Of a stretch of 59,752 nucleotides of DNA, positions 1-59,752 are shown piece after piece. The stretch comes from a virus (Duplodnaviria > Caudoviricetes). Within the stretch, counting starts at the first letter, position 1; each line of letters starts with the position of its first letter. Below the pieces are notes generated by a model. That model saw only the letters and a list, made by a program, of their open reading frames with translations, was not told the DNA's origin and did no database searches. The position numbers and the translations under genes were made by a program. Location: positions 1 to 59,752 of the IMG/VR virus record IMGVR_UViG_3300021514_000001. One strand, written 5' to 3'.

Positions 1-114
1 GGCGGATCGCTGCATCCTGGCGGATCGCTGCATCCTGGCGGATCGCTGCATCCTGGCGGATCGCTGCATCCTGGCGGATCGCTGCATCCTGGCGGATCGC
101 TGCATCCTGGCGGG
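1..114. repeat. 18-bp tandem repeat GGCGGATCGCTGCATCCT, 6 copies plus a partial
   Basis: Read directly; continues the array at the other end of the window. Confidence 0.98.
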
Positions 115-238
115 TCTCTTTCTTCTGTCGCTCCTGCGACATGGCGGAGCGGTGCGCTTCGCACACCATTACAAGTAGTCCCCCTCCCCTTCCCTGGTTG
201 GCGGCGTGTGGAACACTCGTCGCCGGAGACTAGATCAT

Positions 239-4608: not shown

Positions 4609-5526
4609 ATGAAACAAATAACACCTTCCAATCTCATGCCTGAGTTTACGGCAAATAACAAGCTTGTAGATACGCCACCAAAGCGGCCGTTGGCTCGCTA
4701 TCCTGGAAGTAAGAATCGTATCGCTGAATGGATCATCTCTTACTTTCCTGGCTACCATGATACTTTCATTCTGCCTTATGGTGGGATGACAGCCACACTG
4801 TTCAAGAAAGCCAGATCCGGCATTGAAGTTATCAATGATCTTAATGACGACATTATTCATCTGTTTCGCACCCTGCGAAATTATGAGGATGATCTGATCC
4901 ATGCCATTTGCTATACGCCATGGTCTGAGAAAAGCTTGGCTGAGGCACTTGAACCAACGGATGATCCTGTAGAACGTGCCAGGCGCTTTTTTGTTCTGCT
5001 GTGGATGTCACTTCAACCTTATGATAAGAATCCGTCTTTCCGCAGGCAGTATGTATACAGTCGTGGACATGATGGGAAAAACTCGATGGTAGCTGCGGCG
5101 AAGCTGTTCATGGATATTGACTATCTTCATGACATCGCGGGCAGATTGCGCGGGGTTGTAATCGAGCACATGGAGGCAACAGATATTATCCAGATGTACG
5201 ATTATTCTCGCGCTTTGTTTTATTGTGACCCGCCCTATGTTCATTCTACTCGTAAGCGAACTGTCCACTACCTGCACGAAATGAGCGTGCAGCATCATAC
5301 AAAGCTGGCAGATGTGTTAAATGAGATCTCCGGTATGGCGATTGTAAGCGGCTATGCTTGCGACTTGTACTCGGCTCTGTATGAGGACAATGGTTGGGAG
5401 CGTGTAGATCGCCTAGCCAGAACAAGCGGAAGGGACAAGGTTGAATCTGTTTGGCTTAACCCTCGTGTTATCCTTGAACTTGAAGAAGAACACGTTTCGA
5501 CTGAAACGCAGTTGAGTTTATTCTAA
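4609..5526 (+). CDS. DNA adenine methyltransferase, D12/Dam class
   Basis: RYPGSK, EVINDLNDDI and catalytic YCDPPY; motif I is atypical (LPYGG rather than EPFxG). Confidence 0.9.
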   Translation: MKQITPSNLMPEFTANNKLVDTPPKRPLARYPGSKNRIAEWIISYFPGYHDTFILPYGGMTATLFKKARSGIEVINDLNDDIIHLFRTLRNYEDDLIHAICYTPWSEKSLAEALEPTDDPVERARRFFVLLWMSLQPYDKNPSFRRQYVYSRGHDGKNSMVAAAKLFMDIDYLHDIAGRLRGVVIEHMEATDIIQMYDYSRALFYCDPPYVHSTRKRTVHYLHEMSVQHHTKLADVLNEISGMAIVSGYACDLYSALYEDNGWERVDRLARTSGRDKVESVWLNPRVILELEEEHVSTETQLSLF

Positions 5527-29227: not shown

Positions 29228-29692
29228 CTATGCTACTGCGGCTGGTGTGATTTCCTCGGTGACAACGATCACAGCGGCTACGGCTTCTTCCTCGGTATCT
29301 GCATCCATATCTGAATGAGGAGGGCATGATACGACGTGGATGCTGCCGCCGAAGGTATAGCCGGTCATTCCGGCTGTTACTCCAGCTGGTATAACTACCA
29401 TTGAAGCAAGCTCGGTGTTATTTTCATATGCTTCCCAAAGCTCGACCATTAAACCGCCAGCGCCGGCCGTTTCATCAAGGGACCGATCGTCGAGAATGCT
29501 CATGGCAACCTCGAAATTCCCAGCCTTCGCTCTAGTCTGGGTTTCTGTTTTACTTCCACCCAAACTGTTCACGATTCTTTCGCTTTTACGGGGAACGTTG
29601 TAGGAAAGCGTTTTAACACTTCCGTTCTGCTCTGTTCCGCCGATGTTGACGGACCCGCGATCAGGTATGTAAAGTTGCGTTGTTATTGGCAT
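29228..29692 (-). CDS. Major tail (tube) protein, paralog 2
   Basis: 154 aa; position; highly similar to 29733-30197. Confidence 0.75.
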   Translation of the reverse strand: MPITTQLYIPDRGSVNIGGTEQNGSVKTLSYNVPRKSERIVNSLGGSKTETQTRAKAGNFEVAMSILDDRSLDETAGAGGLMVELWEAYENNTELASMVVIPAGVTAGMTGYTFGGSIHVVSCPPHSDMDADTEEEAVAAVIVVTEEITPAAVA

Positions 29693-29732: not shown

Positions 29733-30197
29733 TTATGCAATCGCGGCAGGGGTAATATCCTCAGTAACGACGATAACTGGGACAACGGCTTCTTCTTCGG
29801 TATCTGCATCCAAATCTGCATGAGGAGGACAAGACACCACATGGATGCTGCCGCCGAAGGTATAACCGGTCATGCCGGTCGTGCTTCCAGCAGGAACAAC
29901 GACCATGTTTGTTAGCTCGGTGTTGTTTTCGTAAGCATCCCAAAGCATTTTCAAGACTCCGGTTCCCGCTGCGCTTTCCAGAAGGGATCGATCGTCAAGA
30001 ACGCTAAGAGCTACCTCGAAATTGCCTGCCTTTGCTCTGGATTGGGTTTCTGTCTTGTTTCCACCCAGGCTGTTTACGATCCTTTCGCTTTTGCGCGGGA
30101 CGTTGTAGGAAAGGGTCTTTACGCTTCCGTTGTGTTCACTACTGTTGATTGTAACTGATCCGCGATCAGGTATGTAAAGTTGATTTGTTATTGCCAT
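29733..30197 (-). CDS. Major tail (tube) protein, paralog 1
   Basis: 154 aa; between terminator and chaperone genes. Confidence 0.75.
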   Translation of the reverse strand: MAITNQLYIPDRGSVTINSSEHNGSVKTLSYNVPRKSERIVNSLGGNKTETQSRAKAGNFEVALSVLDDRSLLESAAGTGVLKMLWDAYENNTELTNMVVVPAGSTTGMTGYTFGGSIHVVSCPPHADLDADTEEEAVVPVIVVTEDITPAAIA

Positions 30198-32501: not shown

Positions 32502-33617
32502 CTATGTCAGATCGCTTGACGCGATTGCGATTTTCTCAGGTACTTCGATGACTGGAAGCCCGTTTGTCACGGCTCGGCCGTGAAGCTGCATAGGCATAGC
32601 TTCAGGTGTAAACAACTGCGCCCATCGACCTGGCGCTCCGCCACCTTCGACGGTTGGCCCGATGTGGGTATAGCCAAGTGCCATTGACTTGTATGGATCG
32701 TCAACAGACCCTTCTCCCACGCGATAGCCGGTTCGCCCGGCGTTTGCAACGGCGAGGATCTTTCCTTCCGGCATGAATGGTAATAGCTGGGTCGCATCCG
32801 GCCCGGCAGGATTCATAACTTCTGCTTCAAGTCCGTATGCTTTGATCTTGATCGTGCGGCGCATGTCACTGTCACGCCGTTCGGTTGTTCCGATCAGCCG
32901 CGTGAAGGTGTATTCCTGCGTTCCGTTTGCCATGTCGGTGAAGTTGATCAACTCGATGTTGTTCACTGCATTGTCGATGACTTTGGTCAGGGTGTTGGGA
33001 TGGACAATGAAAGCATTAACGTTGTAATGCAGTACACGCTGCAATTCAGCAATGTCGGCCCAGAATCCTGATGCGGTGCTGTCCCAGGCTGCGGTTCCTG
33101 TTCTGGTTGTCAGGATGTTCGCTGCCGGGATTCCATAATCAACGGCGATTGCCATGTCGTTGAAGGTCCAGGCGATTGCTCCGCTGGTTAGTGCCTGCGC
33201 TCGTAGCCACTCAAAGGCATCAACATGCGCCTGCACGATTACTTTATCTAGGAAGTTTAACGCTTCGTTTTGGATGAAGTCGATTGAATCGCTTAATCCT
33301 AGATTACGCAAGATGCCTTGCATACGACGAATCGCACGCTCAGGCAATATCACGTAGTTTGCGAGCTTGGCAACTTCTTCCATGAAGGTGCTGACCTCGG
33401 TTATCCCGGTCGGGGGATAAGGAGAGTCAGTCCCGGCAAGGCCGGCCATCGCTGAACGAACGGTCATTGATCCGTTTTCTACGTTATAGGATGGCTCGTT
33501 CATTTCGGGTAAATACTGGTTAAAGAGATACCAGGCTGGCGGCCGTACTTCATTCGCAAACACGAAGGAAGCGTCGGCTCCAAGTTCTTTCAATGCTTCA
33601 GCAAAGTTTAGATTCAT
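32502..33617 (-). CDS. Major capsid protein (HK97 fold, lambda gpE-like family)
   Basis: EWLRAQALTSG...VDYGIPAAN...W...DI; follows scaffold and decoration genes. Confidence 0.9.
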   Translation of the reverse strand: MNLNFAEALKELGADASFVFANEVRPPAWYLFNQYLPEMNEPSYNVENGSMTVRSAMAGLAGTDSPYPPTGITEVSTFMEEVAKLANYVILPERAIRRMQGILRNLGLSDSIDFIQNEALNFLDKVIVQAHVDAFEWLRAQALTSGAIAWTFNDMAIAVDYGIPAANILTTRTGTAAWDSTASGFWADIAELQRVLHYNVNAFIVHPNTLTKVIDNAVNNIELINFTDMANGTQEYTFTRLIGTTERRDSDMRRTIKIKAYGLEAEVMNPAGPDATQLLPFMPEGKILAVANAGRTGYRVGEGSVDDPYKSMALGYTHIGPTVEGGGAPGRWAQLFTPEAMPMQLHGRAVTNGLPVIEVPEKIAIASSDLT

Positions 33618-36489: not shown

Positions 36490-38064
36490 TTATATGGTCA
36501 AACTATGTAATCTTCTGCGCCGCTGTCTCTTCCTCTTGCTTGTCCATGTTAATGCTGCGGCAGCCAATACGGCGACCATGGCGGCATCGTCATGATCTCC
36601 TTCCGGCGCGGCTTGTGTGCTTGCGTCTATGTTGGCGATCTGCGCTAATATGATGGGACTCTTGATTCCTAGCTCTCCGATTTCCATCAACTCGGCTAGT
36701 TTATCCATGGCTAATGTTTTTGTTCTTTGGGTGGTGAGCCAGCCTGTTTTGTTGTCAAAGGGATTCTTGTATAACCACTTATAATCGTAGAGATCTCGCA
36801 AGGCGAGCTGCACAGCATGACCATGATTGTTCCTCTCTACACAAACGGTGGCCTGGTTGAACGCCTGCGCTAATCTGTAAATGTATCCGGCGAAGGTGCT
36901 TGGCTCCCACGCTCCTTCGGCATAGGCTACTTCCTCGAAGAGTAATGCGTCCCATATGGCGACTGCAGATGGATCGTTTACGGTGTCTCCCTCAGCCGGG
37001 TCAGCGGTGATGAGGTACGGCCGTCCTAATAGGATCTGCTCGTAATAGACGATCCCCGGTATTCTTGGCAAACCAGCCCGACCTAATCTGCTTAATGGAT
37101 CTGCTTCTCTTGTCGCGGCTTTGATCCAACTAGGCAAAAAACGCTTGTTGGCGCTCAGCCCGGCTAATGCCTGCGCTGGTATTTCTGGATATTCCTGCCA
37201 CAGATCGTCTTGCTCTTTGGTTTTTACTTTATGCTCGTACCACGCTTGATCTCTGCTTGGCCTGGCGTACCATGGCAGGAAGAGGGGGATGTAGTCGCTC
37301 TCTCCTTTTACGCTGCGTCTGTATAATGCTGCAAAATTGTTGTTTGGAACTTCTTTGTCATTCGTGGAAATTATTGCTAACTTCCCGCCTGCATCTGCGG
37401 TTTCTTCGGCCGCGTTTAGCAACTGTTTGAGGAAGGGAATAAAGGCTCCTTCATCAATCAATACGAAGCTGGCGGTGAAACTGCGGCCGCTGTGCTTTGT
37501 GGTCATGAAGCTCTTGGCCCGACTACCGTTCTTTAGGATCAACTGCTGCTCTAATACTTTGTCTGACTCTGGCCGTATCCAGTCTGGCAGTCTTTCCCAC
37601 ATGCCTGCTATTCTTCTGGCAAGTTCTCGTGAATCTTCTCCGTTCTTGGAAAATAATAGGATCATTGATCCTGGCTTGAATACCATTAACCACAGGCTGT
37701 ATCCGATTAGCAGCCATGTAATTCCTAGCTGCCTTGCTTTTAGGATGACAACTTTGTTGTTTTTGTGTACAACTTTGATTGCTTCTCGCTGTGCCGACCA
37801 TAGTTTAAAATCGTACCAAGCTGTTCCCGGCCGGTTTGGATCTTCTATCTGACAATAGTTGTCAATGAAGTATCCTGGGGACATGCCGCATTTGGCGATT
37901 TCTAGTGCGTGATGATCTTTTTCTGGGGCGATGATTGGGACGATAGAGTCTTTGGCCGGCGAGGTTTCATGCTCGCCAGCCATCGTTGTCTCTTCGCGCA
38001 ACGTTATTTCCTGATCTCTGGGGGGTGTCTCTGTGTCGATCTCTTTTGTATCTTCGCCTTGCAT
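36490..38064 (-). CDS. terL: Terminase large subunit
   Basis: ILKARQLGITW (Walker A), VLIDEGAF (Walker B), QEYP, ITADPAEG, VERNNHG, HDDAAM. Confidence 0.96.
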   Translation of the reverse strand: MQGEDTKEIDTETPPRDQEITLREETTMAGEHETSPAKDSIVPIIAPEKDHHALEIAKCGMSPGYFIDNYCQIEDPNRPGTAWYDFKLWSAQREAIKVVHKNNKVVILKARQLGITWLLIGYSLWLMVFKPGSMILLFSKNGEDSRELARRIAGMWERLPDWIRPESDKVLEQQLILKNGSRAKSFMTTKHSGRSFTASFVLIDEGAFIPFLKQLLNAAEETADAGGKLAIISTNDKEVPNNNFAALYRRSVKGESDYIPLFLPWYARPSRDQAWYEHKVKTKEQDDLWQEYPEIPAQALAGLSANKRFLPSWIKAATREADPLSRLGRAGLPRIPGIVYYEQILLGRPYLITADPAEGDTVNDPSAVAIWDALLFEEVAYAEGAWEPSTFAGYIYRLAQAFNQATVCVERNNHGHAVQLALRDLYDYKWLYKNPFDNKTGWLTTQRTKTLAMDKLAELMEIGELGIKSPIILAQIANIDASTQAAPEGDHDDAAMVAVLAAAALTWTSKRKRQRRRRLHSLTI

Positions 38065-38349: not shown

Positions 38350-38745
38350 TTATTTGTGATAATCGCCAAACTGCTTGATAAACCTGTCACATAATTGTCT
38401 TACTGTTTCTTTTGATCCTGGAAACCACGTATGGTTATATCTATGCCACGAAACTATACAATTGGCTGCATCTACATCTTGTTCTTCATCTTCTGTTTCA
38501 TGCTCGGCTAAGATGAAAATCGTTGGCTTTGTTATTTGCAGGTCATCTGTCAATCTTTGAAATGCCATTGCTTGACCACGGCTCATACTCTTGCCTTTGC
38601 TTTTTAGTTCAATGAATATGTAGCAGCTATCTCTATATTCTATTAATCCGTCGATATCTGTTGGAGATATACCATAATCGAATACTAATCCAGAAAAATC
38701 GTTTAATTGCCTGGCTCGCGATCTCCATACTATTTTACCTAGCAT
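38350..38745 (-). CDS. PD-(D/E)XK-fold nuclease-like protein
   Basis: SPTDIDGLIEY...IFIELK...GQ; overlaps the end of the MTase. Confidence 0.6.
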   Translation of the reverse strand: MLGKIVWRSRARQLNDFSGLVFDYGISPTDIDGLIEYRDSCYIFIELKSKGKSMSRGQAMAFQRLTDDLQITKPTIFILAEHETEDEEQDVDAANCIVSWHRYNHTWFPGSKETVRQLCDRFIKQFGDYHK

Positions 38746-39667
38746 ATAATATTGTCCCGTATTGCTTAAATTCAGCCGCAAATATGTCCACTTTTGTGCT
38801 TGGCCCTATGTATATTATTGCTTGGGCTTGTAATGGTGTTTTGCCTTTGTTTCCTTCTTTGTCTATGAACCTGATCCTGCTCCTGGGAAAACATATGACT
38901 CCGCATTGTTCTGCTAATTGCCTGAACCACTTTGTTTCTGTCGCATTGTTCACCAGGATGATGGCTTCTTCTACTGTTCCGCTTGTTATGCTTTCTGCTA
39001 GTTTCTGACAGAATTGCGCGATTAATGGCTGTGAATAAGGTGGGTTCATCCATATTCTCCCGCCCCACTCCCATAGCAGTCCGTCATCTTCTTCTGTGAA
39101 GTAGGCAATTGCTTGTACTATTTCGTTTGCTGTTTCTGAGGAGGCAGGATCTAGGTCGATCTCTCCCATTACTTTTCTTGCGGATTCTATATATGTTTTT
39201 GGGGTATACCATTCGTTTTCGCCACTGGCTTGACCTACGTGCGCCCCATTGATTGCTCGCAATACGCCAGCCTGAGACAGCTCCTTTCCGCTGTCTTTCA
39301 TGTCGTTTATTATCTTGTCAAATTTTTCTTCGGGAATGCTTGCCATTTTCTGCCATCGGGACGACGACATCTTGCTGATGTTGTTATCTTCAAGCGCCTG
39401 GGCGTATTCGGAGATAGGTAACACGCTGTTACTTATCTTTTTCCCTGGCGGCTTCCCCCTCTCGTATTCCTCTAAAAATGTGCCTCCTTTTCTCTCGGCC
39501 CGTATCTGTACCTCTTTCGCTTCTTGGGCAACTTCTCCCATGTTTCTTGCTGTTGCTAATGCGTTTGCTGCCATTGCGGCATCCTTTATGTCTAATACGT
39601 CGACCATTTCACCGGCTTCTCTTAGAGCTAGTTTCATTCTGCTTATTGGTATTAGTTCTGTTGGCAT
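38735..39667 (-). CDS. Phage Dam-type N6-adenine DNA methyltransferase with an N-terminal helical domain
   Basis: ENEWYTP, IDLDPAS, WMNPPYS, NNATETKWF. Confidence 0.92.
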   Translation of the reverse strand: MPTELIPISRMKLALREAGEMVDVLDIKDAAMAANALATARNMGEVAQEAKEVQIRAERKGGTFLEEYERGKPPGKKISNSVLPISEYAQALEDNNISKMSSSRWQKMASIPEEKFDKIINDMKDSGKELSQAGVLRAINGAHVGQASGENEWYTPKTYIESARKVMGEIDLDPASSETANEIVQAIAYFTEEDDGLLWEWGGRIWMNPPYSQPLIAQFCQKLAESITSGTVEEAIILVNNATETKWFRQLAEQCGVICFPRSRIRFIDKEGNKGKTPLQAQAIIYIGPSTKVDIFAAEFKQYGTILYAR

Positions 39668-43223: not shown

Positions 43224-44048
43224 TGCTAGGGGAGGGGGATCTGGTATAATATTGGGGTGTTTATTGTGCGGTTCGCGCTGCGACTACAGCCAACCGCTCT
43301 ACACCTTCAAAGGAGGTGCAGCTTGGATCAAGACTCTATCATCAATCCAAAACATTTCCACGGTAAACCTTGCAAGAAATGTGGGGCTACGCTTCGGTAT
43401 AAGCGCAATCGTAGGTGTGTCGAATGTAAGAAGAAAGAAAACCATTGTTGGTCAGAAGGTAATAGAGAAAGAACGCGAAGTAATAGTCGTCGTTATTATT
43501 ATGCAAATTTAGAGGAGCGCCTTAAAAAAAATCGCGCTTATCGAAAAGCTAATCCTGGAAAGGACCGTGAACAAAGGCGTAGATATCGTCAGGAAAATCG
43601 AGAAAGGATTCGGAAAATAAATCGTCGTTATTATTATGCAAATCCAGAGAAGGTTCGAGCAGGGGTCCGCCGATGGGGGCTGGCAAATCCAAATAGATTG
43701 CGTTTTTATAGCCAGCGGCGCCGTGCTCTAAAGTATACCGCAACGGTTGAAAACGTCATTGATACAAAAGTCTTTGCGCGTAACAAATGGACCTGCGGGA
43801 TCTGTGATAAGCCTGTAGATCCAGACCTCAGGCATCCAGATCCGATGAGCGCAAGCCTTGATCACATCATCCCGCTGTCAAGGGGTGGGGATCACTCTTA
43901 TGCGAATACTCAATGTACACACCTGGTTTGTAACTTGAGGAAGCATAATAAATATGATGGTCCGAATCCTGATGGTTCTTCTCGTTGGTTTCAGTTAACA
44001 CTTTTTTGATTTACGACCGTTTGATCAGTTTTGCTAGGGGAGGGGGAT
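43224..44048. repeat. 17-bp exact direct repeat TGCTAGGGGAGGGGGAT flanking the HNH gene (43224-43240, 44032-44048)
   Basis: Read directly. Confidence 0.9.
43257..44009 (+). CDS. HNH endonuclease with N-terminal zinc finger and basic repeats
   Basis: CKKC...CVEC; CGIC...SLDHIIPLSRGGDHSYANTQCTHLVCNLRK. Confidence 0.92.
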   Translation: MFIVRFALRLQPTALHLQRRCSLDQDSIINPKHFHGKPCKKCGATLRYKRNRRCVECKKKENHCWSEGNRERTRSNSRRYYYANLEERLKKNRAYRKANPGKDREQRRRYRQENRERIRKINRRYYYANPEKVRAGVRRWGLANPNRLRFYSQRRRALKYTATVENVIDTKVFARNKWTCGICDKPVDPDLRHPDPMSASLDHIIPLSRGGDHSYANTQCTHLVCNLRKHNKYDGPNPDGSSRWFQLTLF

Positions 44049-48181: not shown

Positions 48182-51100
48182 CTAGAACAATGACATCTGC
48201 GCCGCATTGACTTTAGCGGGTTTACGTTTAGATACGGTTATCTTTGATTTGCCAAAGACCAGACGCTCAGGTTCGTTTGGCTCTACATCAATAACTTCGA
48301 CAACCTCTACAACTTCCGGTTTTTCGATTACCTGGGCAACTACCCCTGCCGGCGTGTGGACGATCCGCGCTTTAGTCCAGGTGTACTTGATGCCATTAAG
48401 TTCCTCTGTATTCTCGTCTACCGGCGTGGGTTCCTGATCCTCAACGACATATTCAGGATCTTCGTCATCTGTGATAGATTCCTCGCTGGTATAAGCAGAC
48501 TCTTCAGCAAAAGCCTTGTTTGCGCGTTCAAACAAGTCTTGAAGAGACTCGACTTTGACGGTTTCACCATCAACCTGTCCTCCCTTGTCCGGGTGATTAG
48601 CTTTCGCCAACTCTCGAAAGAGTTTCTTTGCTTCAGTAGGGGATTCGCAATCAGTAAAGTGCCCGGTGAAGATGCCATCGGATACCATTTCGTAGTCCAG
48701 GTTGATCTGAACCATCTTGGCTTTCTGCTCAACTCCCGAACGCATTAGCTTCGCTAATTCATTCTCGATGGATGAAGAGGCAAGTTTGTCAAGGTCTGCC
48801 AGATCATCTGACTCGATTGTGTCTCCGTTGACTCGCTTAGCTGCCGCTGCCTTAGCAATGATTAACTTTAAGGCTTGACCCTGGATCGTGTCAGTGTATG
48901 CAAAATGATACACTTTGCAATCATTGGTTTGCCCTAGCCGGTAAGCTCTGCCGCTGGCTTGAATCACTGTGTAGATAGAGAAGTCAGGAGCCATCCAGAT
49001 GATTGTTGGATAACTAAGGATGTCTAATCCCGTTTCAACTTTCTTAGGATGCGAGATTATGACCTGAACGTTGTCCTTCTCTGCCTTCCTGATCCATGCT
49101 TCACGTTTTGCAGGCGTACCCTTGAGGATAGCGGCGTGGATGTTGTGCTGCGCGAGGAACGCTTTCCATTGAGGCTGTATGTCTAGCGTGTTTGTCTGTC
49201 CCAAAACTAAGAGGCAGTTACGGCCGTTATCAATTTCATCCTTGATTAACTCAAGAATCTGCGATTCCTTTGGCGCAATTCCTAGAGGTTGGCCTGTGCC
49301 GGGGATAGATACAAGTGGTTCCTCCTCATTAGGCAGATAAACTTCCTTTGCTCGCCATGGCGCGTCTGGCCAGAACATGAGAGAGGCAATGTATTTACCC
49401 AACAGCGAACGATCACCTCTGATTAAGCGTTTAGATAACTCTTCGCTTAACCTGCTGTAAAGTTTGTCGTATTGAAGCTTCATCTGGGCATCCATTTCAA
49501 CTTCAATCACGTGCTCGCTGAACTTGGGCAAAGCAATGCCCATATCCTTGAGGCTGACAAAGATCGAGCGATTTAGCAGCCATGGCAGCATGGCCGGCGA
49601 TGAACCTGGGATTTCCCTGCTTGTGGTTCTCGTTCGTGATGCTCCTGTGCTCTTGGATGATATGTCATCGCTTTCCGTGCTGGTGTATTCGGTGACACCG
49701 TACTCCGTTTCCCATGCCTTTGCCATGATACGTCCCTTCTCGCTGGCCGTGAAATCTGTCCAATGTTCGCGGAACCCAGCTGATAGACGATACAAGAGCA
49801 AGAAGAGGGTGCTGGCTTTGCCGCCGTAGATCGTGCCGGTCATGATAAGAAACTTCTTTGAAGCAGCAACCATACGAGCATATGCTTCCCCTCGATCTGA
49901 ATCACCCTTGTATTGATGGGCTTCATCAACAATGGTGATGTCGATCATCCGGCGATAATGACGCTTGATGTAGGTGGCTATCGGATAGCGGCCCTTGGTC
50001 TTGCGTTCATCTTGCCAGAGTGGGGTATTGCAATGACGACAAGAATGTTTGATGTTCTTAAAGTCGCTAAGCTGAACAGGCAGGAAAGCATCCTTATGTT
50101 TTCTGTCTGCCACTGTTACCGCCTTGCCACAAGTAGGGCATGTGATGCGTGAGAAGGAAAACTGCTTTGCAACTTTTTTGCGCTCAGGAGTACCTTCTAC
50201 CGACTCGTTGTAATCCTCAATCATGCGATCGTAGAGCTTGGAACTTTTAACGATCTCGTATGGCTTAGTTTTCTTGTCAACGTAATCAAGAACCATCGGC
50301 CCAAAGTAGTTGATTCGGTGAGTCCAACCATCGCCTAACGACGCGGCCGTACTCTTGACTATGCCAAAGATGGGGCCCTGTGTACGAAAGAATCTATCAA
50401 CATCTGTGACGCTGTAGATACCCATTGCCATTGAGTCCGGCCATGTCGCTAATACCTCCCTGATCCATTTGTTAACCAGGTGCGGGGGACACATAACAAT
50501 AAAGTGATCGCGGTTGTTGTTCTTGTGCCATTGAGCATAAGCTGCGGAAACCGAAATCACTGTCTTGCCCGTACCTACCTGCCCTACTAGAATCGCGTCG
50601 TCGTGTTCCTCCCATTGCTGGCATATGGCCGCTGCACTATGCTTTTGTGCAGGTAGCAAGCCTGTTCGATTTGTGTTAGGTATTCTCCTTGGATTAACTC
50701 CCTTGAGATACTTTTTCCACTTGCCCAGCTTGAACATATATCTTGGCGGATACAACTCCTTGAGAAGCTCTGTAACCTTTATGATGTTATCTTTTAAGAA
50801 AGAGGCCAAAGAGCTGTTTTTCAGAACCCCAATCTCTCCCTTTTCGTCAATCGTTGTGATAACAGAACGTGGATCGTGAACAGTGACCGTCTTGGTTTTG
50901 TGAGTAGATTCGGTAGAAGAGGTTGATATTTCGGCTACTACCTGCTCGTTGTAAACAGAACCCTTGATTAAGATGCGGCCTTTGTCTGTCATCAACTCCT
51001 TGTTGTTGATATGGCCGGCGGCAATCGTGCTTGCAATATGTCCAATTTTCATTGGCGTAAGTGGGTCAAGCTCAATCTTGGGCGCCGGGGACAAGTATGT

Positions 51101-51880
51101 CCGGTACTCAGGGCGCGTTTCGATGCCATGACCTTTAACTTCTGCAATGACAGCTTCCGGGTTTGGGGACATACCAAAGAACCAGAACTTTTTCGATTCC
51201 TCAACATAGCTAAGGTCGAAAAGAGGTTTCACAAACGTTGGATGCTCTGGTAGATCGGCGTGTAGCGTAGCTAATTGGCGTAGGTTGCGCGTTACGGTTA
51301 CATCTGCACGTAAGGCTACCTTTCGCACGGTTCCGTAGATTACGACCTGCTTGTATGCGTTGTACGTATCACCTACGAAGCGGTACGCAAGCAAGTCTGT
51401 AAACCAGGAAGCGAGATAACGCTGCACAAGTCTGTCGCCTAAGATGCGTTCAGGCACTATCCAGATGAGCAAGCCACCTTCTGCAAGGTAGGGACGCATT
51501 GCCTTGAGCCAGGTGTATTCCTCCCGCCCTGATTCTTTGTCAAAGTCATACGGGGGGTTGAGATACAACACGGTGAATGACTTTCGCTCGGTGCGGATAT
51601 TCCTGTAATCATCATTGATTACACTGGCGCTGGTCGTATTCTCGATTACTTTCACGGCATCAGCCGCGTAGGATGCACGTTGTTCGTGCAGTTCGCAACC
51701 AAATGGGAGCAGGTTAGCTCCCCTTGCTATGCCGGTTAATGCGACTCCTTCGCCGCATCCCGGATCTAATATTTTCGATGTCCTCTCTCCATTCATCCTG
51801 GAGATCGTAGATAGAATCGGGGGTATCATCATTTCCGGAAGCGGGTAAAACCCCGCCTTTGCTGTTCCTGCTAGTCTCAT
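48182..51880 (-). CDS. Fusion: DUF6094-like N6-adenine MTase + SNF2/SF2 helicase (zinc ribbon insert) + C-terminal J-domain-like module
   Basis: AKAGFYPLP, ILDPGCGEG, LYLNPPYD; GQVGTGKT, IVDEAHQYK, MTGT, ETGLDI, QASGRAYRLGQ; AKKLFRELAKANHPDKGG. Confidence 0.9.
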   Translation of the reverse strand: MRLAGTAKAGFYPLPEMMIPPILSTISRMNGERTSKILDPGCGEGVALTGIARGANLLPFGCELHEQRASYAADAVKVIENTTSASVINDDYRNIRTERKSFTVLYLNPPYDFDKESGREEYTWLKAMRPYLAEGGLLIWIVPERILGDRLVQRYLASWFTDLLAYRFVGDTYNAYKQVVIYGTVRKVALRADVTVTRNLRQLATLHADLPEHPTFVKPLFDLSYVEESKKFWFFGMSPNPEAVIAEVKGHGIETRPEYRTYLSPAPKIELDPLTPMKIGHIASTIAAGHINNKELMTDKGRILIKGSVYNEQVVAEISTSSTESTHKTKTVTVHDPRSVITTIDEKGEIGVLKNSSLASFLKDNIIKVTELLKELYPPRYMFKLGKWKKYLKGVNPRRIPNTNRTGLLPAQKHSAAAICQQWEEHDDAILVGQVGTGKTVISVSAAYAQWHKNNNRDHFIVMCPPHLVNKWIREVLATWPDSMAMGIYSVTDVDRFFRTQGPIFGIVKSTAASLGDGWTHRINYFGPMVLDYVDKKTKPYEIVKSSKLYDRMIEDYNESVEGTPERKKVAKQFSFSRITCPTCGKAVTVADRKHKDAFLPVQLSDFKNIKHSCRHCNTPLWQDERKTKGRYPIATYIKRHYRRMIDITIVDEAHQYKGDSDRGEAYARMVAASKKFLIMTGTIYGGKASTLFLLLYRLSAGFREHWTDFTASEKGRIMAKAWETEYGVTEYTSTESDDISSKSTGASRTRTTSREIPGSSPAMLPWLLNRSIFVSLKDMGIALPKFSEHVIEVEMDAQMKLQYDKLYSRLSEELSKRLIRGDRSLLGKYIASLMFWPDAPWRAKEVYLPNEEEPLVSIPGTGQPLGIAPKESQILELIKDEIDNGRNCLLVLGQTNTLDIQPQWKAFLAQHNIHAAILKGTPAKREAWIRKAEKDNVQVIISHPKKVETGLDILSYPTIIWMAPDFSIYTVIQASGRAYRLGQTNDCKVYHFAYTDTIQGQALKLIIAKAAAAKRVNGDTIESDDLADLDKLASSSIENELAKLMRSGVEQKAKMVQINLDYEMVSDGIFTGHFTDCESPTEAKKLFRELAKANHPDKGGQVDGETVKVESLQDLFERANKAFAEESAYTSEESITDDEDPEYVVEDQEPTPVDENTEELNGIKYTWTKARIVHTPAGVVAQVIEKPEVVEVVEVIDVEPNEPERLVFGKSKITVSKRKPAKVNAAQMSLF

Positions 51881-52166
51881 AAGATTTACTCCTCGTTATA
51901 GGTGGAATGGTGTCTGAATCAAGCGATTCAAAATCAATCCAAATAGGCTTGATTACATGCCCATAATCTTCAATTAACTTGACGTAGAATGGGTAATCCC
52001 AATTAGGATGATTACCCCTGTATTCGTCGATGTGGTTGTAGCGGATTTGCTCCCATGTAAGATCACTTGCTGACAACGATTCAACCAATCGCTCTGCGTT
52101 GTGTTCTTCCAATGTGAAGCAAATCACGCCATCGACTTCGTGAATGGAGCCGAATACTACGAACAT
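51714..52166 (-). CDS. Hypothetical protein (3' end overlaps the MTase-helicase start)
   Basis: Fills the gap between two large genes; overlap of about 165 nt is unusual. Confidence 0.5.
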   Translation of the reverse strand: MFVVFGSIHEVDGVICFTLEEHNAERLVESLSASDLTWEQIRYNHIDEYRGNHPNWDYPFYVKLIEDYGHVIKPIWIDFESLDSDTIPPITRSKSYETSRNSKGGVLPASGNDDTPDSIYDLQDEWREDIENIRSGMRRRSRINRHSKGS

Positions 52167-53791
52167 GAAAATACTAAATCCTTTGAGGCAACACCTGCGG
52201 ATATGAGTGTTCCCCAATCAGTGCTGCTTAAGCCGCGCTTGATCGTCCAGGATGTGCCGCCGATTTGTTTGTTTGGGTTACCTGTGTAAGTAATCATCCC
52301 GATTGAACGACCTAATACCCAAAGATACTCGGCCCAATGCGGCATGATAGGAACCTTTAGGAAACGATCTAGCGTTGCCAAGAAGTGATTGGGCATTGCG
52401 TCAGATCTCTCGGTGGTCAGCAGATAGAATTTGCTATCTAGCGGCGTTAGCTCAGTTGGTGAAGCATCATGGTTGATTAAGATCATCTGGTATAAACCGG
52501 ATGGGAGTTCTGATTCAAATCGCTTGTGATTCTTTGCATTTGCGACTTTGAAATATTCTCCTTCGTAGTAGTGCTGCTTCTTACTCATAAGCTCTGCCCA
52601 ATTTGCCCGGACACTATTTCGTGGACCTACCATGTTTAGATATATCAACTCCTCTGATGCGGGATTCAAGATGAATCCGACAAGCGTAACAGGTAAACCT
52701 GCGGCGAATGATGCCTTGTGGCTGTGTTGAAGAGAAGCCTCGGTCATTCGCTGTTTTTGAACACATACGAACCGTTCGTTTGGTGTGCCAAAACTAAAGT
52801 GATCGCTCCAATACTCTTCCGTGTAAAGATCAAAGCCGTTGATAACAAGAGGTTTCGCCCATTCCCCGGTACTACCCATAAGCTGAAACTTGATTTTAGA
52901 CGTTGGCAGGTTAATCCCATGATCCAGGAGTCGATCTCGGATCGTCTGTAATGGCATTACCTGATAGCCATGATCACTAAAAACCAGATTGCCATCATCG
53001 GACAAGATCTGCCGGCCAATATCCTCGATATTGTCGGGCATCTCAATGGGCTTGGGGATGAAGCGATCTTGCACATGATTGTACTTGTAGAGTTCAGCCA
53101 TTTGCTCGACATACTCTTGAAAATCCTGCGGGAAAAGATCCGGCTTTGAGTAATAGGAACGGCCGTAAGCATCCTGAGCCACGATGTCGTAGAAACCACT
53201 GTCGGAGAAGGAGTTATCACCATCAAACTCCTGATCCATCTTTGCTGTAGGAGTCGGTGTCCATTTAGGATATGCGGTGAAAAGCTGACGATCGGGCTGG
53301 TATGTCCACTCTCCAGCATCAAGCACGGCATTGATGATGTTCTTGACGAGCTGCATACGACTATCCTGTGCTATGCCGACGTACATATGATTCCAAACAT
53401 GCTCGTAAATCACGGAGTCGTAAAGATAGACTTCAGGGTAAGCACGTTGGTTGTACGCTCTTGTGTAGAAGTCGAACGAGGAAAGAGCTTCTTTCACGGC
53501 CTCAATGTCGGGCGGGTTGACAACCTGGTAATACGCTCCGCGTTCAGTAAAATCAACGTCTGGCGGCATGAACTCGCGCTCTGTCCCTAAGTTGCTCAAA
53601 CCACGGGCGCTATCCAGATGATCCATAAGCAGTTGGAACCTCTTGGGGGACATATTCCCCTCAGTCATTATCCAATCAATGAGTGAATCTTTGCTGACGT
53701 AGGTGAGGTTTTTAATAACAAACCGCCTGACGTGATTCGCCTCCATCGCATTGTTTAACAAAGTTTCGAGTGACGATTCTGTATGATCCAT
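52157..53791 (-). CDS. Hypothetical protein; C-terminal domain resembles plasmid/ICE proteins found next to DUF6094 MTases
   Basis: LIYLNMVGPRNSVRANWAEL...VPIMPHWAEYLW; GGAGG RBS. Confidence 0.65.
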   Translation of the reverse strand: MDHTESSLETLLNNAMEANHVRRFVIKNLTYVSKDSLIDWIMTEGNMSPKRFQLLMDHLDSARGLSNLGTEREFMPPDVDFTERGAYYQVVNPPDIEAVKEALSSFDFYTRAYNQRAYPEVYLYDSVIYEHVWNHMYVGIAQDSRMQLVKNIINAVLDAGEWTYQPDRQLFTAYPKWTPTPTAKMDQEFDGDNSFSDSGFYDIVAQDAYGRSYYSKPDLFPQDFQEYVEQMAELYKYNHVQDRFIPKPIEMPDNIEDIGRQILSDDGNLVFSDHGYQVMPLQTIRDRLLDHGINLPTSKIKFQLMGSTGEWAKPLVINGFDLYTEEYWSDHFSFGTPNERFVCVQKQRMTEASLQHSHKASFAAGLPVTLVGFILNPASEELIYLNMVGPRNSVRANWAELMSKKQHYYEGEYFKVANAKNHKRFESELPSGLYQMILINHDASPTELTPLDSKFYLLTTERSDAMPNHFLATLDRFLKVPIMPHWAEYLWVLGRSIGMITYTGNPNKQIGGTSWTIKRGLSSTDWGTLISAGVASKDLVFSCS

Positions 53792-54441: not shown

Positions 54442-54951
54442 CTAGAACGGGAACCCGTCCTCGCTGTCCTCATCCTCTCCGTAGTGGACGGTTCCGTCAG
54501 CCATAGTGACGGTGGTGAAGTCCGTGGTCGGTTCGTCAACCTTCTGATCCTGGGAGCTGAACTCTTCGGAATCGCTAACAGCAGATTGTTGCTGAGGATT
54601 TTCACCAAACTCGACGGTCCAGGCGAGCAGCTCGAAGGTTGTACGAGGGTCTGCACGCTCAGTGTCGTCAGTCTTGAACCAGATGCGCGGATTGCCCCAA
54701 TCATTCGAGCGCATTTTCCCTTCGACAAGAACCTTGCGGCCTTTCTTCAGGTGACGGTTGCAGGCCTCAGCCTGGTTGTTGCTAACTCGAACTGTGTACC
54801 AGGTCGTGTCCTTCTGCCGGTTACCATTTGAATCTGTCCACTCGTCGTTGACTGCAACGGGAAAAACGCTGCCGGTTGAACCGCTGGGTAAACGAACTTC
54901 TTTCGGATCTCTGCCTAAATTACCAATGATCATTACTTTGTGTAGTTTCAT
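54442..54951 (-). CDS. ssb: Single-stranded DNA-binding protein
   Basis: KVMIIGNLGRDP, DTTWYTV, LKKGRKVLVEG, acidic tail ending DGFPF. Confidence 0.95.
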   Translation of the reverse strand: MKLHKVMIIGNLGRDPKEVRLPSGSTGSVFPVAVNDEWTDSNGNRQKDTTWYTVRVSNNQAEACNRHLKKGRKVLVEGKMRSNDWGNPRIWFKTDDTERADPRTTFELLAWTVEFGENPQQQSAVSDSEEFSSQDQKVDEPTTDFTTVTMADGTVHYGEDEDSEDGFPF

Positions 54952-54999: not shown

Positions 55000-55448
55000 G
55001 GTTGATAAAATCGCCCTGGCCTACATAGACCAGGGCGTGAAAGACTAAAATAACAAGTACGGTATGTCAGCGTCCCATATGGTTACATTCAAATAGCCGA
55101 TAAGATCCGTCATGTCAATATCGTAGGTACAGTAATCTTCAGCTAAGAGGACAAACCCCTCGATTGCACTTGAATCACGCCTGACAAGTCCGAAGCTAAA
55201 ATCCTCCTCGCCCATAGGCGTTAAGTATGGGAACTTGTAGAGAAGCGAGATGCCGAATTCTTCGGTGAAGTAGACGATGGCCTGCCAATCGCGGCCGTAT
55301 GGGTGGAGGTTTATATCAACTATTTCTAAACTTGCTTTACGTGCAATCTCTTCGATTAATTCAATGGTGAGCATTGGTTGTGTCCTCGTTAACTAGAAAA
55401 GTGGGTTGATAAAATCGCCCTGGCCTACATAGACCAGGGCGTGAAAGA
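55000..55448. repeat. 45-bp exact direct repeat (55000-55044, 55404-55448) containing a terminator-like hairpin, flanking one gene
   Basis: GGTTGATAAAATCGCCCTGGCCTACATAGACCAGGGCGTGAAAGA occurs twice. Confidence 0.95.
55045..55374 (-). CDS. Hypothetical acidic protein
   Basis: GAGGA RBS; bracketed by the 45-bp repeats. Confidence 0.7.
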   Translation of the reverse strand: MLTIELIEEIARKASLEIVDINLHPYGRDWQAIVYFTEEFGISLLYKFPYLTPMGEEDFSFGLVRRDSSAIEGFVLLAEDYCTYDIDMTDLIGYLNVTIWDADIPYLLF

Positions 55449-55694: not shown

Positions 55695-56192
55695 TTACGA
55701 TAAAACCTTACACGGTGTGCCATAATATGATTGATGCCAATCCCTCAGGTATTGAGTGATATTGCTGTGATCTGATATTTCGGCGCGCACCTTCATAAGC
55801 AGAATGCCAAGCATATTACCCTTCTCTTTATCGGCACATTTGGGGCAAACACAACTCGCCCAATAATTATCATGCCAATGAACTAGATGGATGATTTCCT
55901 GATCGCCTGTGCCTATCAATGCTTCTTTCATATGAGGATCTGTAAACTTCTGACGCAGCGCGAAAAGCATTACACTTCGATTTACTCTGTGCCAATCATT
56001 TCGGCGATCGAATCCTTTGCCATATTTCTTGGCCTCTGCCGGATGTTCTATACCGGCAATCTTTAAACGCTCGGCGATGTCTGTGGTCATCATAGCCACA
56101 AAGAAATGCTCAATGCTGGGGTAAGCTATATGCTCATACAAAATATGCTTGTGTGCGGGCAAATAAAAATTGCTAAATTCTTTGATCCACAT
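55695..56192 (-). CDS. NADAR family protein (YbiA-like; putative ADP-ribosyl/N-glycosidase)
   Basis: FSNFY, YPSIEHFF, AKKYG, W...VM..ALRQKF, LIGTG, DNYW, GNMLGILLMKVR. Confidence 0.9.
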   Translation of the reverse strand: MWIKEFSNFYLPAHKHILYEHIAYPSIEHFFVAMMTTDIAERLKIAGIEHPAEAKKYGKGFDRRNDWHRVNRSVMLFALRQKFTDPHMKEALIGTGDQEIIHLVHWHDNYWASCVCPKCADKEKGNMLGILLMKVRAEISDHSNITQYLRDWHQSYYGTPCKVLS

Positions 56193-59654: not shown

Positions 59655-59752
59655 GGCGGATCGCTGCATCCTGGCGGATCGCTGCATCCTGGCGGATCGC
59701 TGCATCCTGGCGGATCGCTGCATCCTGGCGGATCGCTGCATCCTGGCGGATC
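59655..59752. repeat. 18-bp tandem repeat GGCGGATCGCTGCATCCT, 5 copies plus a partial
   Basis: Identical to nt 1-98. Confidence 0.98.

What the first reader, a model, noticed from the sequence alone, without database searches (positions are those of the whole stretch)
48182..51880. Methyltransferase-SNF2 helicase fusion carrying a J-domain
Seen: complete MTase and SF2 motifs, then FTDCESPTEAKKLFRELAKANHPDKGG...LFERANKAF (HPD at 48587-48595) and an acidic tail ending AQMSLF, a clamp-binding-like motif. Established: MTase-helicase fusions such as P1 DarB act in anti-restriction, and HPD J-domains recruit DnaK. Inference: a translocating methylase that recruits Hsp70 and possibly the beta clamp to protect incoming or nascent DNA. 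I do not know this architecture from described systems.
Basis: partly seen in the sequence, partly recalled or inferred. Interest (0 to 1): 0.75.

Follow-up and report, generated by a model that had tools for sequence, protein, structure and literature searches.

The report
Phage methylase-motor with J-domain, clamp tail
A phage of probably Chloroflexota bacteria encodes one large protein joining a DNA adenine methylase, a Snf2-type DNA motor, a chaperone-recruiting J-domain and a sliding-clamp-binding tail, which suggests that the phage methylates its DNA while it is being copied.

Summary
ORF 48182-51880 (-) encodes 1232 aa: a DUF6094 N6-adenine methylase (NPPY), a Snf2-like ATPase with a zinc ribbon, a J-like segment with HPD at 48587-48595, an acidic linker, and a tail ending QMSLF.

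The J-domain is real by sequence. A profile of 11 relatives hits solved J-domains at E 1.8e-6, and 146 of 148 library hits carry HPD. Two AlphaFold models were low-confidence, so the fold test is inconclusive. The J-domain is patchy: 11 of 120 listed relatives.

The clamp motif is the stronger feature. A strict QL[SD]LF-like motif ends 34 of 120 relatives, against 1 of 12126 internal windows. 13 of 82 related loci encode their own beta-clamp. The phage's Dam-like methylase and its HNH protein also end in QLSLF and QLTLF. A co-fold with a Chloroflexota clamp gave weak support only.

The window is a complete tailed-phage genome. The gene lies in a replication/recombination operon, behind a conserved partner of unknown function.

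Best reading: a replisome-tethered methylase-translocase that protects new phage DNA and recruits DnaK. This is a new variant of the known MTase-SNF2 dyad. Function is inferred.

The parts
48182..51880 (-). Whole gene: MTase-Snf2-J-domain-clamp-tail protein, 1232 aa (stop codon 48182-48184)
   Evidence: strong GAGGAG Shine-Dalgarno before the ATG, identical in relative L001
51308..51877 (-). N-terminal SAM-dependent N6-adenine DNA methyltransferase (DUF6094), residues 2-191. Motif I LDPGCGEG at 51746-51769; motif IV NPPY at 51548-51559
   Evidence: Pfam 70.5 bits vs cut-off 22.8. NPPY invariant in 29 of 29 aligned relatives. Profile hit to M.BseCI at E 3.4e-9
50660..51307 (-). Middle region, residues 192-407, conserved in the family, no known domain
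   Evidence: invariant columns P273, G280, G289, G348, F361, P379, Y381 in A2; no Pfam hit
48929..50659 (-). Snf2-like SF2 ATPase core, residues 408-984. Walker A 50561-50584, DEAH 49916-49927, motif III 49820-49843, Helicase_C 48932-49261, motif VI 48929-48961
   Evidence: Pfam SNF2-rel_dom 34.0 vs 24.9, ResIII, DEAD, Helicase_C. Family profile vs PDB: best hits are Snf2 remodelers, Rad26 at 2.8e-17, then CHD1L, Fft3, INO80
50027..50140 (-). Four-cysteine zinc ribbon inserted in ATPase lobe 1 (CPTC 581-584 ... CRHC 614-617)
   Evidence: C581, C584, C614, C617 nearly invariant in A2; weak zf-LITAF-like hit
48497..48709 (-). J-domain-like segment, residues 1058-1128. Helix I INLDYEMV, helix II PTEAKKLFRELAKAN, HPD 48587-48595, helix III LQDLFERANKAFAEE
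   Evidence: AF2 places helices at the expected spots but with low confidence
48272..48508 (-). Acidic, proline/valine-rich linker, residues 1125-1203
   Evidence: 23 D/E vs 4 K/R of 79; length and sequence vary among relatives
48185..48271 (-). Conserved bipartite tail. ERLVFG at 48251-48268, basic stretch KRKPAKV at 48209-48229, terminal QMSLF at 48185-48199 (beta-clamp-binding-type motif)
   Evidence: co-fold gave weak support
52157..53791 (-). Protein X, 544 aa, unknown family. Conserved upstream partner on the same strand
   Evidence: relatives upstream of the gene on the same strand, median gap 122 bases, at 57 of the 59 placed ORFs of its cluster, which spans 59 of 82 loci. No Pfam, PHROG, PADLOC, NCBIfam or PDB-profile hit
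51881..52166 (-). Small conserved coding stretch between X and the gene. The frame stays open to 51714, overlapping the gene's start
   Evidence: 82% mean column identity (consensus-based) to L001
54442..54951 (-). SSB, same operon
   Evidence: phrog_44 at E 5.9e-20; SSB also near the gene in 13-26 of 82 related loci
4609..5526 (+). Dam-like D12 adenine methylase whose last five residues are QLSLF (5509-5523)
   Evidence: Pfam MethyltransfD12 at E 3.7e-18; tail; tail kept in a 74%-identical relative although the linker before it differs
43257..44009 (+). HNH endonuclease-domain protein whose last five residues are QLTLF (43992-44006)
   Evidence: Pfam HNH at E 1e-8; tail

Best explanation
The gene encodes a replisome-tethered DNA adenine methyltransferase driven by a Snf2-type double-strand DNA translocase. 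It belongs to the replication/recombination operon of a complete tailed phage whose host is probably a Chloroflexota bacterium.

Shown by sequence:
- intact methylase motifs I and IV
- intact ATPase motifs I, II, III and VI
- a conserved 4-Cys zinc ribbon
- a divergent J-domain with HPD
- a conserved tail: RLVFG, a basic stretch, then QMSLF

Inferred:
[quoted passage not shown] The phage has no clamp of its own.
- This places the enzyme on freshly replicated or primed phage DNA. The motor then carries the methylase along the duplex.
- New DNA is N6-adenine methylated before host restriction can act. This would be a prokaryotic counterpart of Dnmt1 on PCNA.
- The J-domain, through HPD, triggers ATP hydrolysis in host DnaK at that site. 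This would remodel or release protein-DNA or protein-clamp complexes, or the enzyme itself. It is an accessory gained in one branch of the family and is not needed for the core function.
For: Architecture:
- Pfam and motif positions.
- Catalytic residues are invariant in 29 of 29 aligned relatives.
- The family profile's best PDB hits are Snf2 remodelers, with M.BseCI for the methylase part.

J-domain:
- All 10 weak PDB hits of the single segment are J-domain proteins.
- The 11-sequence profile gave 77 PDB hits at E<=1, best 1.8e-6. The 60 shown are J-domain proteins apart from one heme oxygenase at E 0.11.
- Against 1.84 billion representatives it gave 459 hits at E<=1e-3. 146 of the 148 examined carry HPD.
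- HPD is invariant in an alignment of 44.
- 3 relatives carry precomputed PF00226.

Clamp tail:
- A strict motif lies in the last 12 residues of 34 of 120 relatives, against 1 of 12126 internal windows. The loose motif gives 53 of 120 against 39 of 12126.
- It is found in 0 of 1164 unrelated ORFs of the same loci.
- Q1228 is invariant and L1231 nearly invariant in A2. I chose many motif-bearing rows for A2, so this is biased.
- 13 of 82 related loci encode a beta-clamp homologue upstream (PF02768, E 1.2e-8). 10 of those 13 have QMGLGI/QMGFGI-type tails.
- The window has no clamp.
- In the same phage the Dam-like methylase ends QLSLF and an HNH protein ends QLTLF. The Dam tail is kept in a 74%-identical relative.
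- Co-fold of the last 45 residues with a Chloroflexota DnaN gave weak support. Score 0.38, best of 3 controls 0.01. The mark was reached by 58 of 80 solved complexes and 2 of 110 mismatched pairs. At 0.60 or under it was reached by only 7 of those 80 and by both mismatches that passed. The runs agree in at least 81% of contacts and the partner pLDDT is at least 52. Clamp-peptide complexes are solved, so the pass may come from memory.

Context:
- Same operon as SSB.
- Relatives sit with a Rad52-like annealase (37 loci), a DnaG-like primase (15), SSB and a clamp.
- Split DUF6094 plus helicase pairs lie beside Rad52 or SSB on plasmids.

Precedent (passages read):
- DarB-type MTase-SNF2 dyads protect transferred DNA (PMC5512222).
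- Dnmt1 binds PCNA (PMC9690074).
Against: - No experiment bears on any activity.
- The single sequence is below Pfam's DnaJ cut-off (16.7 vs 27.8 bits).
- Two AF2 models of the segment have pLDDT 69.3 and 57.9 and gave no fold match at E<=1e-3.
- The J-domain is present in only 11 of 120 listed relatives and in 4 of 82 genomic loci, with HPD in 2.
- In close relatives P0006-P0008 the helices remain but HPD is lost. P0011 and P0012 lack helices I-II. DnaK recruitment is therefore dispensable for the family.
- QMSLF has M where the recalled consensus has L.
- The co-fold pass is weak, and by the tool's own counts such a pass is more often wrong than right unless the guess was likely beforehand.
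- The phage carries two further methylases (4609-5526, 38735-39667), so protective methylation does not need this protein.
- The conserved partner X is unexplained and could change the reading.
- The host is inferred, not shown.
Confidence: 0.45

Rival explanations
1. Replication or recombination remodeler. The Snf2 motor, J-domain and clamp tail serve to assemble or clear the phage replisome. One example is freeing the phage DnaB-like helicase or the origin complex with DnaK, as lambda P-DnaB needs DnaK/DnaJ and as SV40 large T carries a J-domain on a helicase (recalled). Methylation would be regulatory or secondary.
For: - The gene lies in the operon with SSB, and the phage has a DnaB-like helicase at 2735-4111.
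- Relatives sit with Rad52-like, primase, SSB and clamp genes.
- Several relatives carry inteins in the helicase (PF14528, PF07591). Inteins favour essential replication proteins (recalled).
- One weak PDB hit of the J segment is large T antigen.
Against: - Methylase catalytic motifs are invariant across the family, so methylation is under selection.
- The J-domain is absent from most members.
- No origin-binding domain was recognised.
Confidence: 0.18
2. DarB-like virion-carried anti-restriction protein. It would be packaged in the head, injected with the DNA, and would methylate or shield the incoming genome in cis before any replication.
For: - Same MTase-then-SNF2 plan as the DarB archetype described in PMC5512222 (passages).
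- phrog_62 'DNA helicase' hit at E 5e-33.
- Split plasmid forms sit near T4SS genes and an ADP-ribosyltransferase.
Against: - tblastn of the protein against 50,697 phage records matched only 6 metagenomic records, and no P1 record.
- The MTase match starts at residue 2, so there is no room for the N-terminal LPD36 domain said to precede DarB-type methylases.
- The gene lies among replication genes, not head genes.
- A clamp-binding tail and element-encoded clamps point to replication.
Confidence: 0.12
3. Prophage-borne defence or exclusion module. The MTase-Snf2 protein with partner X would form a restriction-like or BREX/DISARM/Zorya-like system that marks self DNA and attacks other invaders.
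For: - Domain-level PADLOC hits: ZorD 4e-13, DpdE 3.7e-12, mad2 6.7e-8, BrxHII, DrmD.
- A tightly linked unknown partner X.
- Prok-E2_D and ThiF genes lie downstream in 10-12 of 82 loci.
Against: - All PADLOC hits cover single domains only, and X has none.
- No nuclease domain was found in the protein or in X.
- The neighbours are replication and recombination genes.
Confidence: 0.08
4. Host take-over by sequestration. The clamp motif and J-domain would titrate the host beta clamp and DnaK away from host replication and the heat-shock circuit, as clamp-binding phage inhibitors and the phage J-protein Rki do.
For: - Rki is a phage J-domain protein acting on DnaK and sigma32 (PMC3486835, abstract and passages).
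- Three proteins of this phage end in the motif.
Against: - A 1232-aa enzyme with all catalytic motifs conserved is an unlikely mere decoy.
- The motif is kept in elements that bring their own clamp.
Confidence: 0.07

Closest known systems
MTase-SWI2/SNF2 'dyad' of phages, plasmids and conjugative elements; archetype P1 DarB (Iyer et al. 2017, PMC5512222; passages read)
   Same: An N6-adenine methylase of the EcoKI/TaqI-like (gamma) type lies N-terminal to a Snf2-clade ATPase on a mobile element. The proposed job is processive methylation or protection of the element's DNA.
   Different: - No N-terminal LPD36-type domain, and it is not a giant polyvalent protein.
- No detectable similarity to P1 at tblastn E 1e-5.
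- It carries a zinc ribbon, a J-domain and a clamp-binding tail. That paper's main text mentions none of these with the dyad (0 hits for DnaJ, J-domain, clamp).
- It lies in a replication operon.
Pfam DUF6094 methyltransferases with adjacent DEAD/SNF2 helicases on plasmids (e.g. Thermoanaerobacterium pMU3262, Thermus pTTJL1802)
   Same: Same methylase family and helicase, at 26-32% identity in the 12 listed of 330 plasmid records. Rad52 or SSB genes lie nearby.
   Different: There the two halves are separate genes in either order, with no J-domain. Their helicase tails (…GQLMFDF, …GQPVLFAEVL) are only loosely motif-like.
Class C (type III) J-domain proteins of phages and viruses: RB43 Rki (PMC3486835); polyomavirus large T antigen (recalled)
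   Same: HPD loop with a basic helix II. The HPDKGG variant is shared with T antigen and TIM14. Large T also joins a J-domain to a helicase.
   Different: The J-domain is near the C-terminus of a methylase-Snf2 enzyme rather than at the N-terminus of a small protein or an SF3 helicase. The HPD-to-helix-III loop is longer. The fold is not confirmed.
Beta-clamp-binding motif QL[SD]LF (Dalrymple et al. 2001, recalled; cited in PMC9690074) and Dnmt1-PCNA coupling (PMC9690074, passage)
   Same: A terminal pentapeptide of consensus type, and a methyltransferase tethered to the sliding clamp.
   Different: My searches found no bacterial or phage DNA methylase reported to carry this motif. Here two methylases and an HNH protein of one phage have it.

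Membership tests
J-domain (Pfam PF00226 DnaJ) | HPD tripeptide in the loop between helices II and III | tested here: met
   HPD at 1096-1098. Invariant in the 11 J-bearing relatives and in an alignment of 44 with canonical J proteins.
J-domain (Pfam PF00226 DnaJ) | Significant match to the family model | tested here: inconclusive
   The single segment scores 16.7 bits, below the 27.8 cut-off. The 11-sequence profile reaches E 1.8e-6 against solved J-domains. 146 of 148 library hits carry HPD. 3 relatives have precomputed PF00226.
J-domain (Pfam PF00226 DnaJ) | Compact helical fold with an antiparallel helix II/III hairpin | tested here: inconclusive
   AF2 models have pLDDT 69.3 and 57.9, with helices at the expected places. 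No Foldseek hit at E<=1e-3. In one search, 4 of the top 5 weak rows are J-domains at E 2.7-5.2.
J-domain (Pfam PF00226 DnaJ) | Stimulates Hsp70/DnaK ATPase in an HPD-dependent way | not testable with these tools
   Needs a biochemical or complementation assay.
Beta-clamp-binding proteins (QL[SD]LF motif) | Consensus pentapeptide, usually at a terminus | tested here: met
   QMSLF forms the last five residues. Nearest relatives have QLSLF. The consensus itself is recalled.
Beta-clamp-binding proteins (QL[SD]LF motif) | Motif conserved in relatives beyond chance | tested here: met
   34 of 120 against 1 of 12126 internal windows. 0 of 1164 unrelated ORFs.
Beta-clamp-binding proteins (QL[SD]LF motif) | Peptide docks in the clamp's hydrophobic cleft | tested here: inconclusive
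   Co-fold gave weak support: score 0.38 against best control 0.01. No interface was reported, and the pass may come from memory of solved complexes.
SWI2/SNF2 ATPases | SF2 motifs I, II, III and VI, and a match to the SNF2 model | tested here: met
   Motifs located. SNF2-rel_dom scores 34.0 bits vs 24.9 but covers only profile positions 2-88 of 290. The best PDB profile hits are Snf2 remodelers, in two stretches.
DUF6094 / gamma-class N6-adenine DNA methyltransferases | SAM motif I followed by NPPY motif IV; match to the family model | tested here: met
   70.5 bits vs 22.8, though only profile positions 128-311 of 344 are matched. LDPGCGEG then NPPY. M.BseCI at E 3.4e-9.
DarB-type polyvalent MTase-helicase proteins | N-terminal LPD36 domain before the methylase (as stated in PMC5512222) | tested here: not met
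   The methylase match begins at residue 2, so nothing precedes it. LPD36 itself could not be searched because no model is on hand.
DarB-type polyvalent MTase-helicase proteins | Sequence similarity to P1 DarB | tested here: not met
   tblastn against 50,697 phage records at E<=1e-5 matched 6 metagenomic records and none from P1. More sensitive profile comparison was not done.
DarB-type polyvalent MTase-helicase proteins | Packaged in the virion and acting in cis on injected DNA | not testable with these tools
   Needs virion proteomics.
Known anti-phage defence systems (PADLOC: Zorya, Dpd, DISARM, BREX, MADS) | Full-length match to a system component, with the system's other genes nearby | tested here: not met
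   Only single-domain partial hits (ZorD 4e-13 over residues 859-994, and others). X and three other neighbours gave no specific hit.

The most novel reading that the evidence does not exclude
This phage, and a wide family of Chloroflexota mobile elements, would use the beta sliding clamp as a landing pad for DNA-modifying enzymes. Two methyltransferases and an HNH nuclease each end in a QLSLF-type peptide. Epigenetic marking and cutting would then be coupled directly to the replication fork, making a bacterial-virus counterpart of Dnmt1-PCNA maintenance methylation. The large enzyme would add a motor and its own J-domain, so that host Hsp70 is brought to the fork to clear or recycle complexes. 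Some relatives would even bring a private clamp for this purpose.
Probability: 0.3. Interest if true: 0.8.

Novelty: new variant of a known kind. Interest (0 to 1): 0.62.

Why it matters
MTase-Snf2 fusions on phages and plasmids are common, but how they are aimed at the right DNA at the right time is unknown. A conserved clamp-binding tail gives a concrete, testable answer: they ride on the replisome's clamp. Three observations back it: element-encoded clamps in relatives, a second clamp-tailed methylase, and a clamp-tailed HNH protein in the same phage.

If true, it would be the first replication-coupled DNA methylation device described in a bacterial virus. It would add DNA methylases to the list of beta-clamp clients. 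It would also give a new context for J-domain proteins, namely Hsp70 recruited to a DNA-modifying motor.

The finding also defines a large uncharacterised module in Chloroflexota, a phylum with almost no phage biology. At least 583 hits were found among one genome per species. The module comprises X, the MTase-Snf2 protein, a Rad52-like protein, SSB, a primase and a clamp.

Tried and rejected
- **Fold test of the J segment.** The AF2 model of residues 1040-1140 gave no Foldseek PDB match at E<=1e-3. VIA-align wide returned only generic helical hairpins at Z<=6.7, dominated by a long N-terminal helix. A trimmed model of 1058-1135 with 44 rows had pLDDT 57.9 and again gave no significant match. 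This neither confirms nor refutes the fold.
- **Megablast of the gene against phages.** No match.
- **Protein X.** No Pfam, PHROG, PADLOC or NCBIfam hit. No hit for its 36-row profile against PDB sequences. The ESM Atlas feature search gave RNA-virus polymerase clusters at 0.91-0.93 with at most 149 shared features. The tool's own guidance marks that as probably wrong, so I rejected it.
- **Clamp, Rad52 or primase in the window.** HMMs built from the neighbours of relatives found none; the best E for a clamp was 0.1. PF00712 also found none.
- **HNH protein in two related phage records.** None found, but both records are fragments.
- **Frameshifted N-terminal extension.** I considered that the small upstream ORF is joined to the gene by a frameshift and rejected it. 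A conserved GAGGAG Shine-Dalgarno and ATG precede the gene in both phages.
- **Tail alignment for the co-fold.** The co-fold was therefore run with the window's tail alone.
- **Tools and papers not available.** Barriot et al. [quoted passage not shown] Supplements are closed. The architecture lists in that paper and in the supplements of PMC5512222 and PMC10410713 could already contain such a fusion.

Full report
**What is there**

The window is a complete virus record with direct terminal repeats. Both ends lie in the same 18-base tandem repeat. It is a tailed phage:
- large terminase at 36490-38064
- major head protein at 32502-33617
- tape measure at 25204-28521
- a DnaB-like helicase at 2735-4111

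The finding's ORF, 48182-51880 on the minus strand, encodes 1232 residues.

**Domains**

- Pfam gives DUF6094 methyltransferase over residues 2-191 (70.5 bits, cut-off 22.8). It also gives ResIII, DEAD, SNF2-rel_dom and Helicase_C above their cut-offs.
- Methylase motif I (LDPGCGEG) precedes motif IV (NPPY), the gamma arrangement of N6-adenine methylases.
- ATPase motifs I, II, III and VI are intact.
- In an alignment of 29 diverse relatives, NPPY, the Walker A lysine, the DE of motif II, TGT of motif III and the motif VI arginines are invariant. Four cysteines of an inserted zinc ribbon are nearly invariant.
- The family profile's best solved relatives are Snf2 remodelers (Rad26 at 2.8e-17, then CHD1L, Fft3, INO80). 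For the methylase part it is M.BseCI at 3.4e-9.
- The motor is therefore a double-strand translocase of the Snf2 kind, joined to an adenine methylase. This is the 'dyad' described for DarB and many mobile elements (PMC5512222, passages).

**The J-domain**

On its own the segment is weak. Pfam DnaJ scores 16.7 bits against a cut-off of 27.8. Even so, all 10 weak PDB sequence hits are J-domain proteins.

Eleven of the 120 listed relatives (of 176 found) carry HPD at the same place, and three of them have a precomputed PF00226 hit. A profile of those eleven segments gives these results:
- It finds solved J-domains at E 1.8e-6. There were 77 hits at E<=1, and the 60 shown are J-domain proteins except one heme oxygenase at E 0.11.
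- Against 1.84 billion representatives it finds 459 proteins at E<=1e-3. Of the 148 examined, 146 carry HPD, many with the canonical DYYxxLGV…HPD pattern.
- Aligned with 41 such proteins and two relatives, HPD is invariant and the helix II positions K, Y/F and L are nearly so.
- The segment belongs to a subtype with 'F-x-x-C' before helix II and 'HPDxGG' after it. Small J proteins among the hits share this subtype.

Two AlphaFold models (pLDDT 69.3 and 57.9) place helices where helices I, II and III should be. Neither gave a fold match at E<=1e-3. In the second search, four of the five best weak rows were J-domains at E 2.7-5.2.

The domain is patchy. Close relatives P0006-P0008 keep the helices but have lost HPD, and P0011 and P0012 lack helices I-II. 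Only 4 of 82 genomic loci match the J profile, 2 of them with HPD. I conclude that it is a true J-domain homologue, probably functional here, and an accessory of one branch.

**The tail**

This turned out to be the family's hallmark. The last 29 residues read ERLVFG, then a basic stretch, then QMSLF.

| Set examined | Strict motif Q[LM]x[LF]F in last 12 residues | Loose motif |
|---|---|---|
| 120 listed relatives | 34 | 53 |
| 12126 internal 12-residue windows | 1 | 39 |
| 1164 unrelated ORFs of the same loci | 0 | 8 |

- Variants include QLSLF(G), QMGLGI and QISLF. In Dehalococcoidia the variant is TLSLFEW, and several members have two copies.
- Another sub-branch ends in PPVPRPRLLIxQLGLK.
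- The motif matches the beta-clamp-binding consensus QL[SD]LF. I recall that consensus from Dalrymple et al. 2001, which is cited in PMC9690074.

**Independent support from context**

I fetched 82 related loci: 2 from viral contigs and 80 from genomes. The genome loci are nearly all Chloroflexota MAGs, taken from at least 583 hits.
- 13 loci encode a divergent beta-clamp homologue upstream on the same strand (PF02768, E 1.2e-8). Ten of those 13 have QMG[LF]GI tails, one has QVSLF, and two ORFs were truncated in my ORF call.
- The window phage has no clamp, so it would use the host's.

**A second observation within the window**

Of the 55 proteins I listed, three end in the motif:
- this protein
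- the Dam-like D12 methylase (…TETQLSLF)
- an HNH-domain protein (…WFQLTLF)

The Dam-like tail is kept in a 74%-identical relative although the linker before it differs. It recurs among that enzyme's relatives: strict in 6 and loose in 15 of the 120 listed, out of 950 found.

**Co-fold**

I co-folded the last 45 residues with the chromosomal DnaN of an Ardenticatenaceae MAG. The result was weak support:
- Score 0.38; best of 3 controls 0.01.
- The mark was reached by 58 of 80 solved complexes and 2 of 110 mismatched pairs. At 0.60 or under it was reached by only 7 of the 80 and by both mismatches that passed.
- The runs agree in at least 81% of contacts, and the partner pLDDT is at least 52.

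Clamp-peptide complexes are solved, so this may only reflect likeness.

**Surroundings**

The gene is in a minus-strand operon. In transcription order it reads: NADAR protein, SSB (54442-54951), a 188-aa protein, protein X (52157-53791), a small conserved ORF, the gene itself, then small ORFs.
- A 75%-identical phage has the same order.
- Relatives of X lie upstream on the same strand (median gap 122 bases) at 57 of the 59 placed ORFs of a cluster present in 59 of 82 loci. X matches no family or solved sequence.
- Other recurrent neighbours are a Rad52-like annealase (37 loci), a DnaG-like primase (15), SSB (13-26), and Prok-E2_D with ThiF downstream (10-12).
- On plasmids the methylase and helicase occur as separate adjacent genes beside Rad52 or SSB.
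- The host is probably Chloroflexota. The best genomic relatives of this gene and the 63%-identical Dam-like relative are both from that phylum. This is an inference.

**Mechanism**

The best-supported reading is a clamp-tethered, motor-driven adenine methylase. It would mark newly made phage DNA before host restriction acts. The J-domain would bring DnaK to the same site.
- Shown: the domains, their conserved catalytic residues, and the conservation and context of the tail.
- Inferred: clamp binding, DnaK recruitment, the target of methylation, and the benefit to the phage.

Against this reading:
- The phage has two further methylases.
- The J-domain is dispensable in relatives.
- X is unexplained.

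The rivals are a replisome remodeler, a DarB-like injected protector, a prophage defence module, and sequestration of clamp and DnaK. They are set out with their tests in the Rival explanations section.

**Comparison and novelty**

The MTase-Snf2 dyad is known. I found no description of one with a J-domain or a clamp-binding tail, nor of any bacterial or phage DNA methylase with that motif.
- Searches found nothing relevant.
- The main text of PMC5512222 has 0 mentions of DnaJ, J-domain or clamp.
- PMC10410713 has 0 mentions of helicase or methyltransferase.

I file this as a new variant of a known kind.

Noticed in passing
window 4609-5526 (+), tail 5509-5523: The Dam-like D12 adenine methylase ends in QLSLF. 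The tail is kept in 96%- and 74%-identical relatives (L089, L090). It recurs among its relatives: strict in 6 and loose in 15 of 120 listed.
   Followed up: yes
window 43257-44009 (+), tail 43992-44006: An HNH endonuclease-domain protein, on the opposite strand to its neighbours, ends in QLTLF. This is a third clamp-motif tail in one phage. No relative was found in two fragmentary related records.
   Followed up: partly
window 52157-53791 (-): Protein X (544 aa) has no recognisable family. Its relatives lie upstream of the MTase-Snf2 gene on the same strand (median gap 122 bases) in most related loci. W486 is invariant in a C-terminal block of its alignment.
   Followed up: partly
window 51714-52217 (-): A small coding stretch lies between X and the gene and is conserved in L001. 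Its frame stays open 167 bases into the gene in both phages.
   Followed up: partly
window 1-116 and 59655-59752: Both ends of the record lie in a tandem array of an 18-base unit. The terminal repeat or assembly join therefore sits in a repeat array that could be iterons or a packaging site.
   Followed up: no
window 55000-55044 and 55404-55448: A perfect 45-base direct repeat brackets the 109-aa ORF 55045-55374.
   Followed up: no
L033, L035, L036, L039, L040, L043-L046, L051, L056, L065, L068: Related Chloroflexota elements encode a divergent beta-clamp homologue upstream of the gene. Others carry Rad52-like, DnaG-like primase, and Prok-E2_D plus ThiF genes.
   Followed up: partly
relatives P0045, P0049, P0053, P0054, P0059, P0075, P0109, P0117; loci L065, L068: Several family members carry intein-type domains (PF14528, PF07591) and matches stretched to about 5.5 kb. 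This suggests inteins inside the helicase.
   Followed up: no
window 55695-56192 (-) and 38735-39667 (-): A NADAR-domain protein lies in the same early operon, and there is a third DNA methyltransferase (phrog_111). The phage carries three methylases in all.
   Followed up: no
window 29228-29692 / 29733-30197 and 9580-11220: A tandemly duplicated 154-aa gene (79% identical copies), and several internal repeats in the 1502-aa ORF 9575-14083, including a 27-base triple repeat at its 3' end.
   Followed up: no
L084, L085 (genome G002): The Ornatilinea genome that hosts a relative has two full-length dnaN-type genes on different contigs.
   Followed up: no
L087, L088 (plasmids): Split DUF6094 and helicase genes on Thermoanaerobacterium and Thermus plasmids. 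An ADP-ribosyltransferase and Rad52 (L087) or SSB (L088) lie nearby. The helicase tails are loosely clamp-motif-like.
   Followed up: partly
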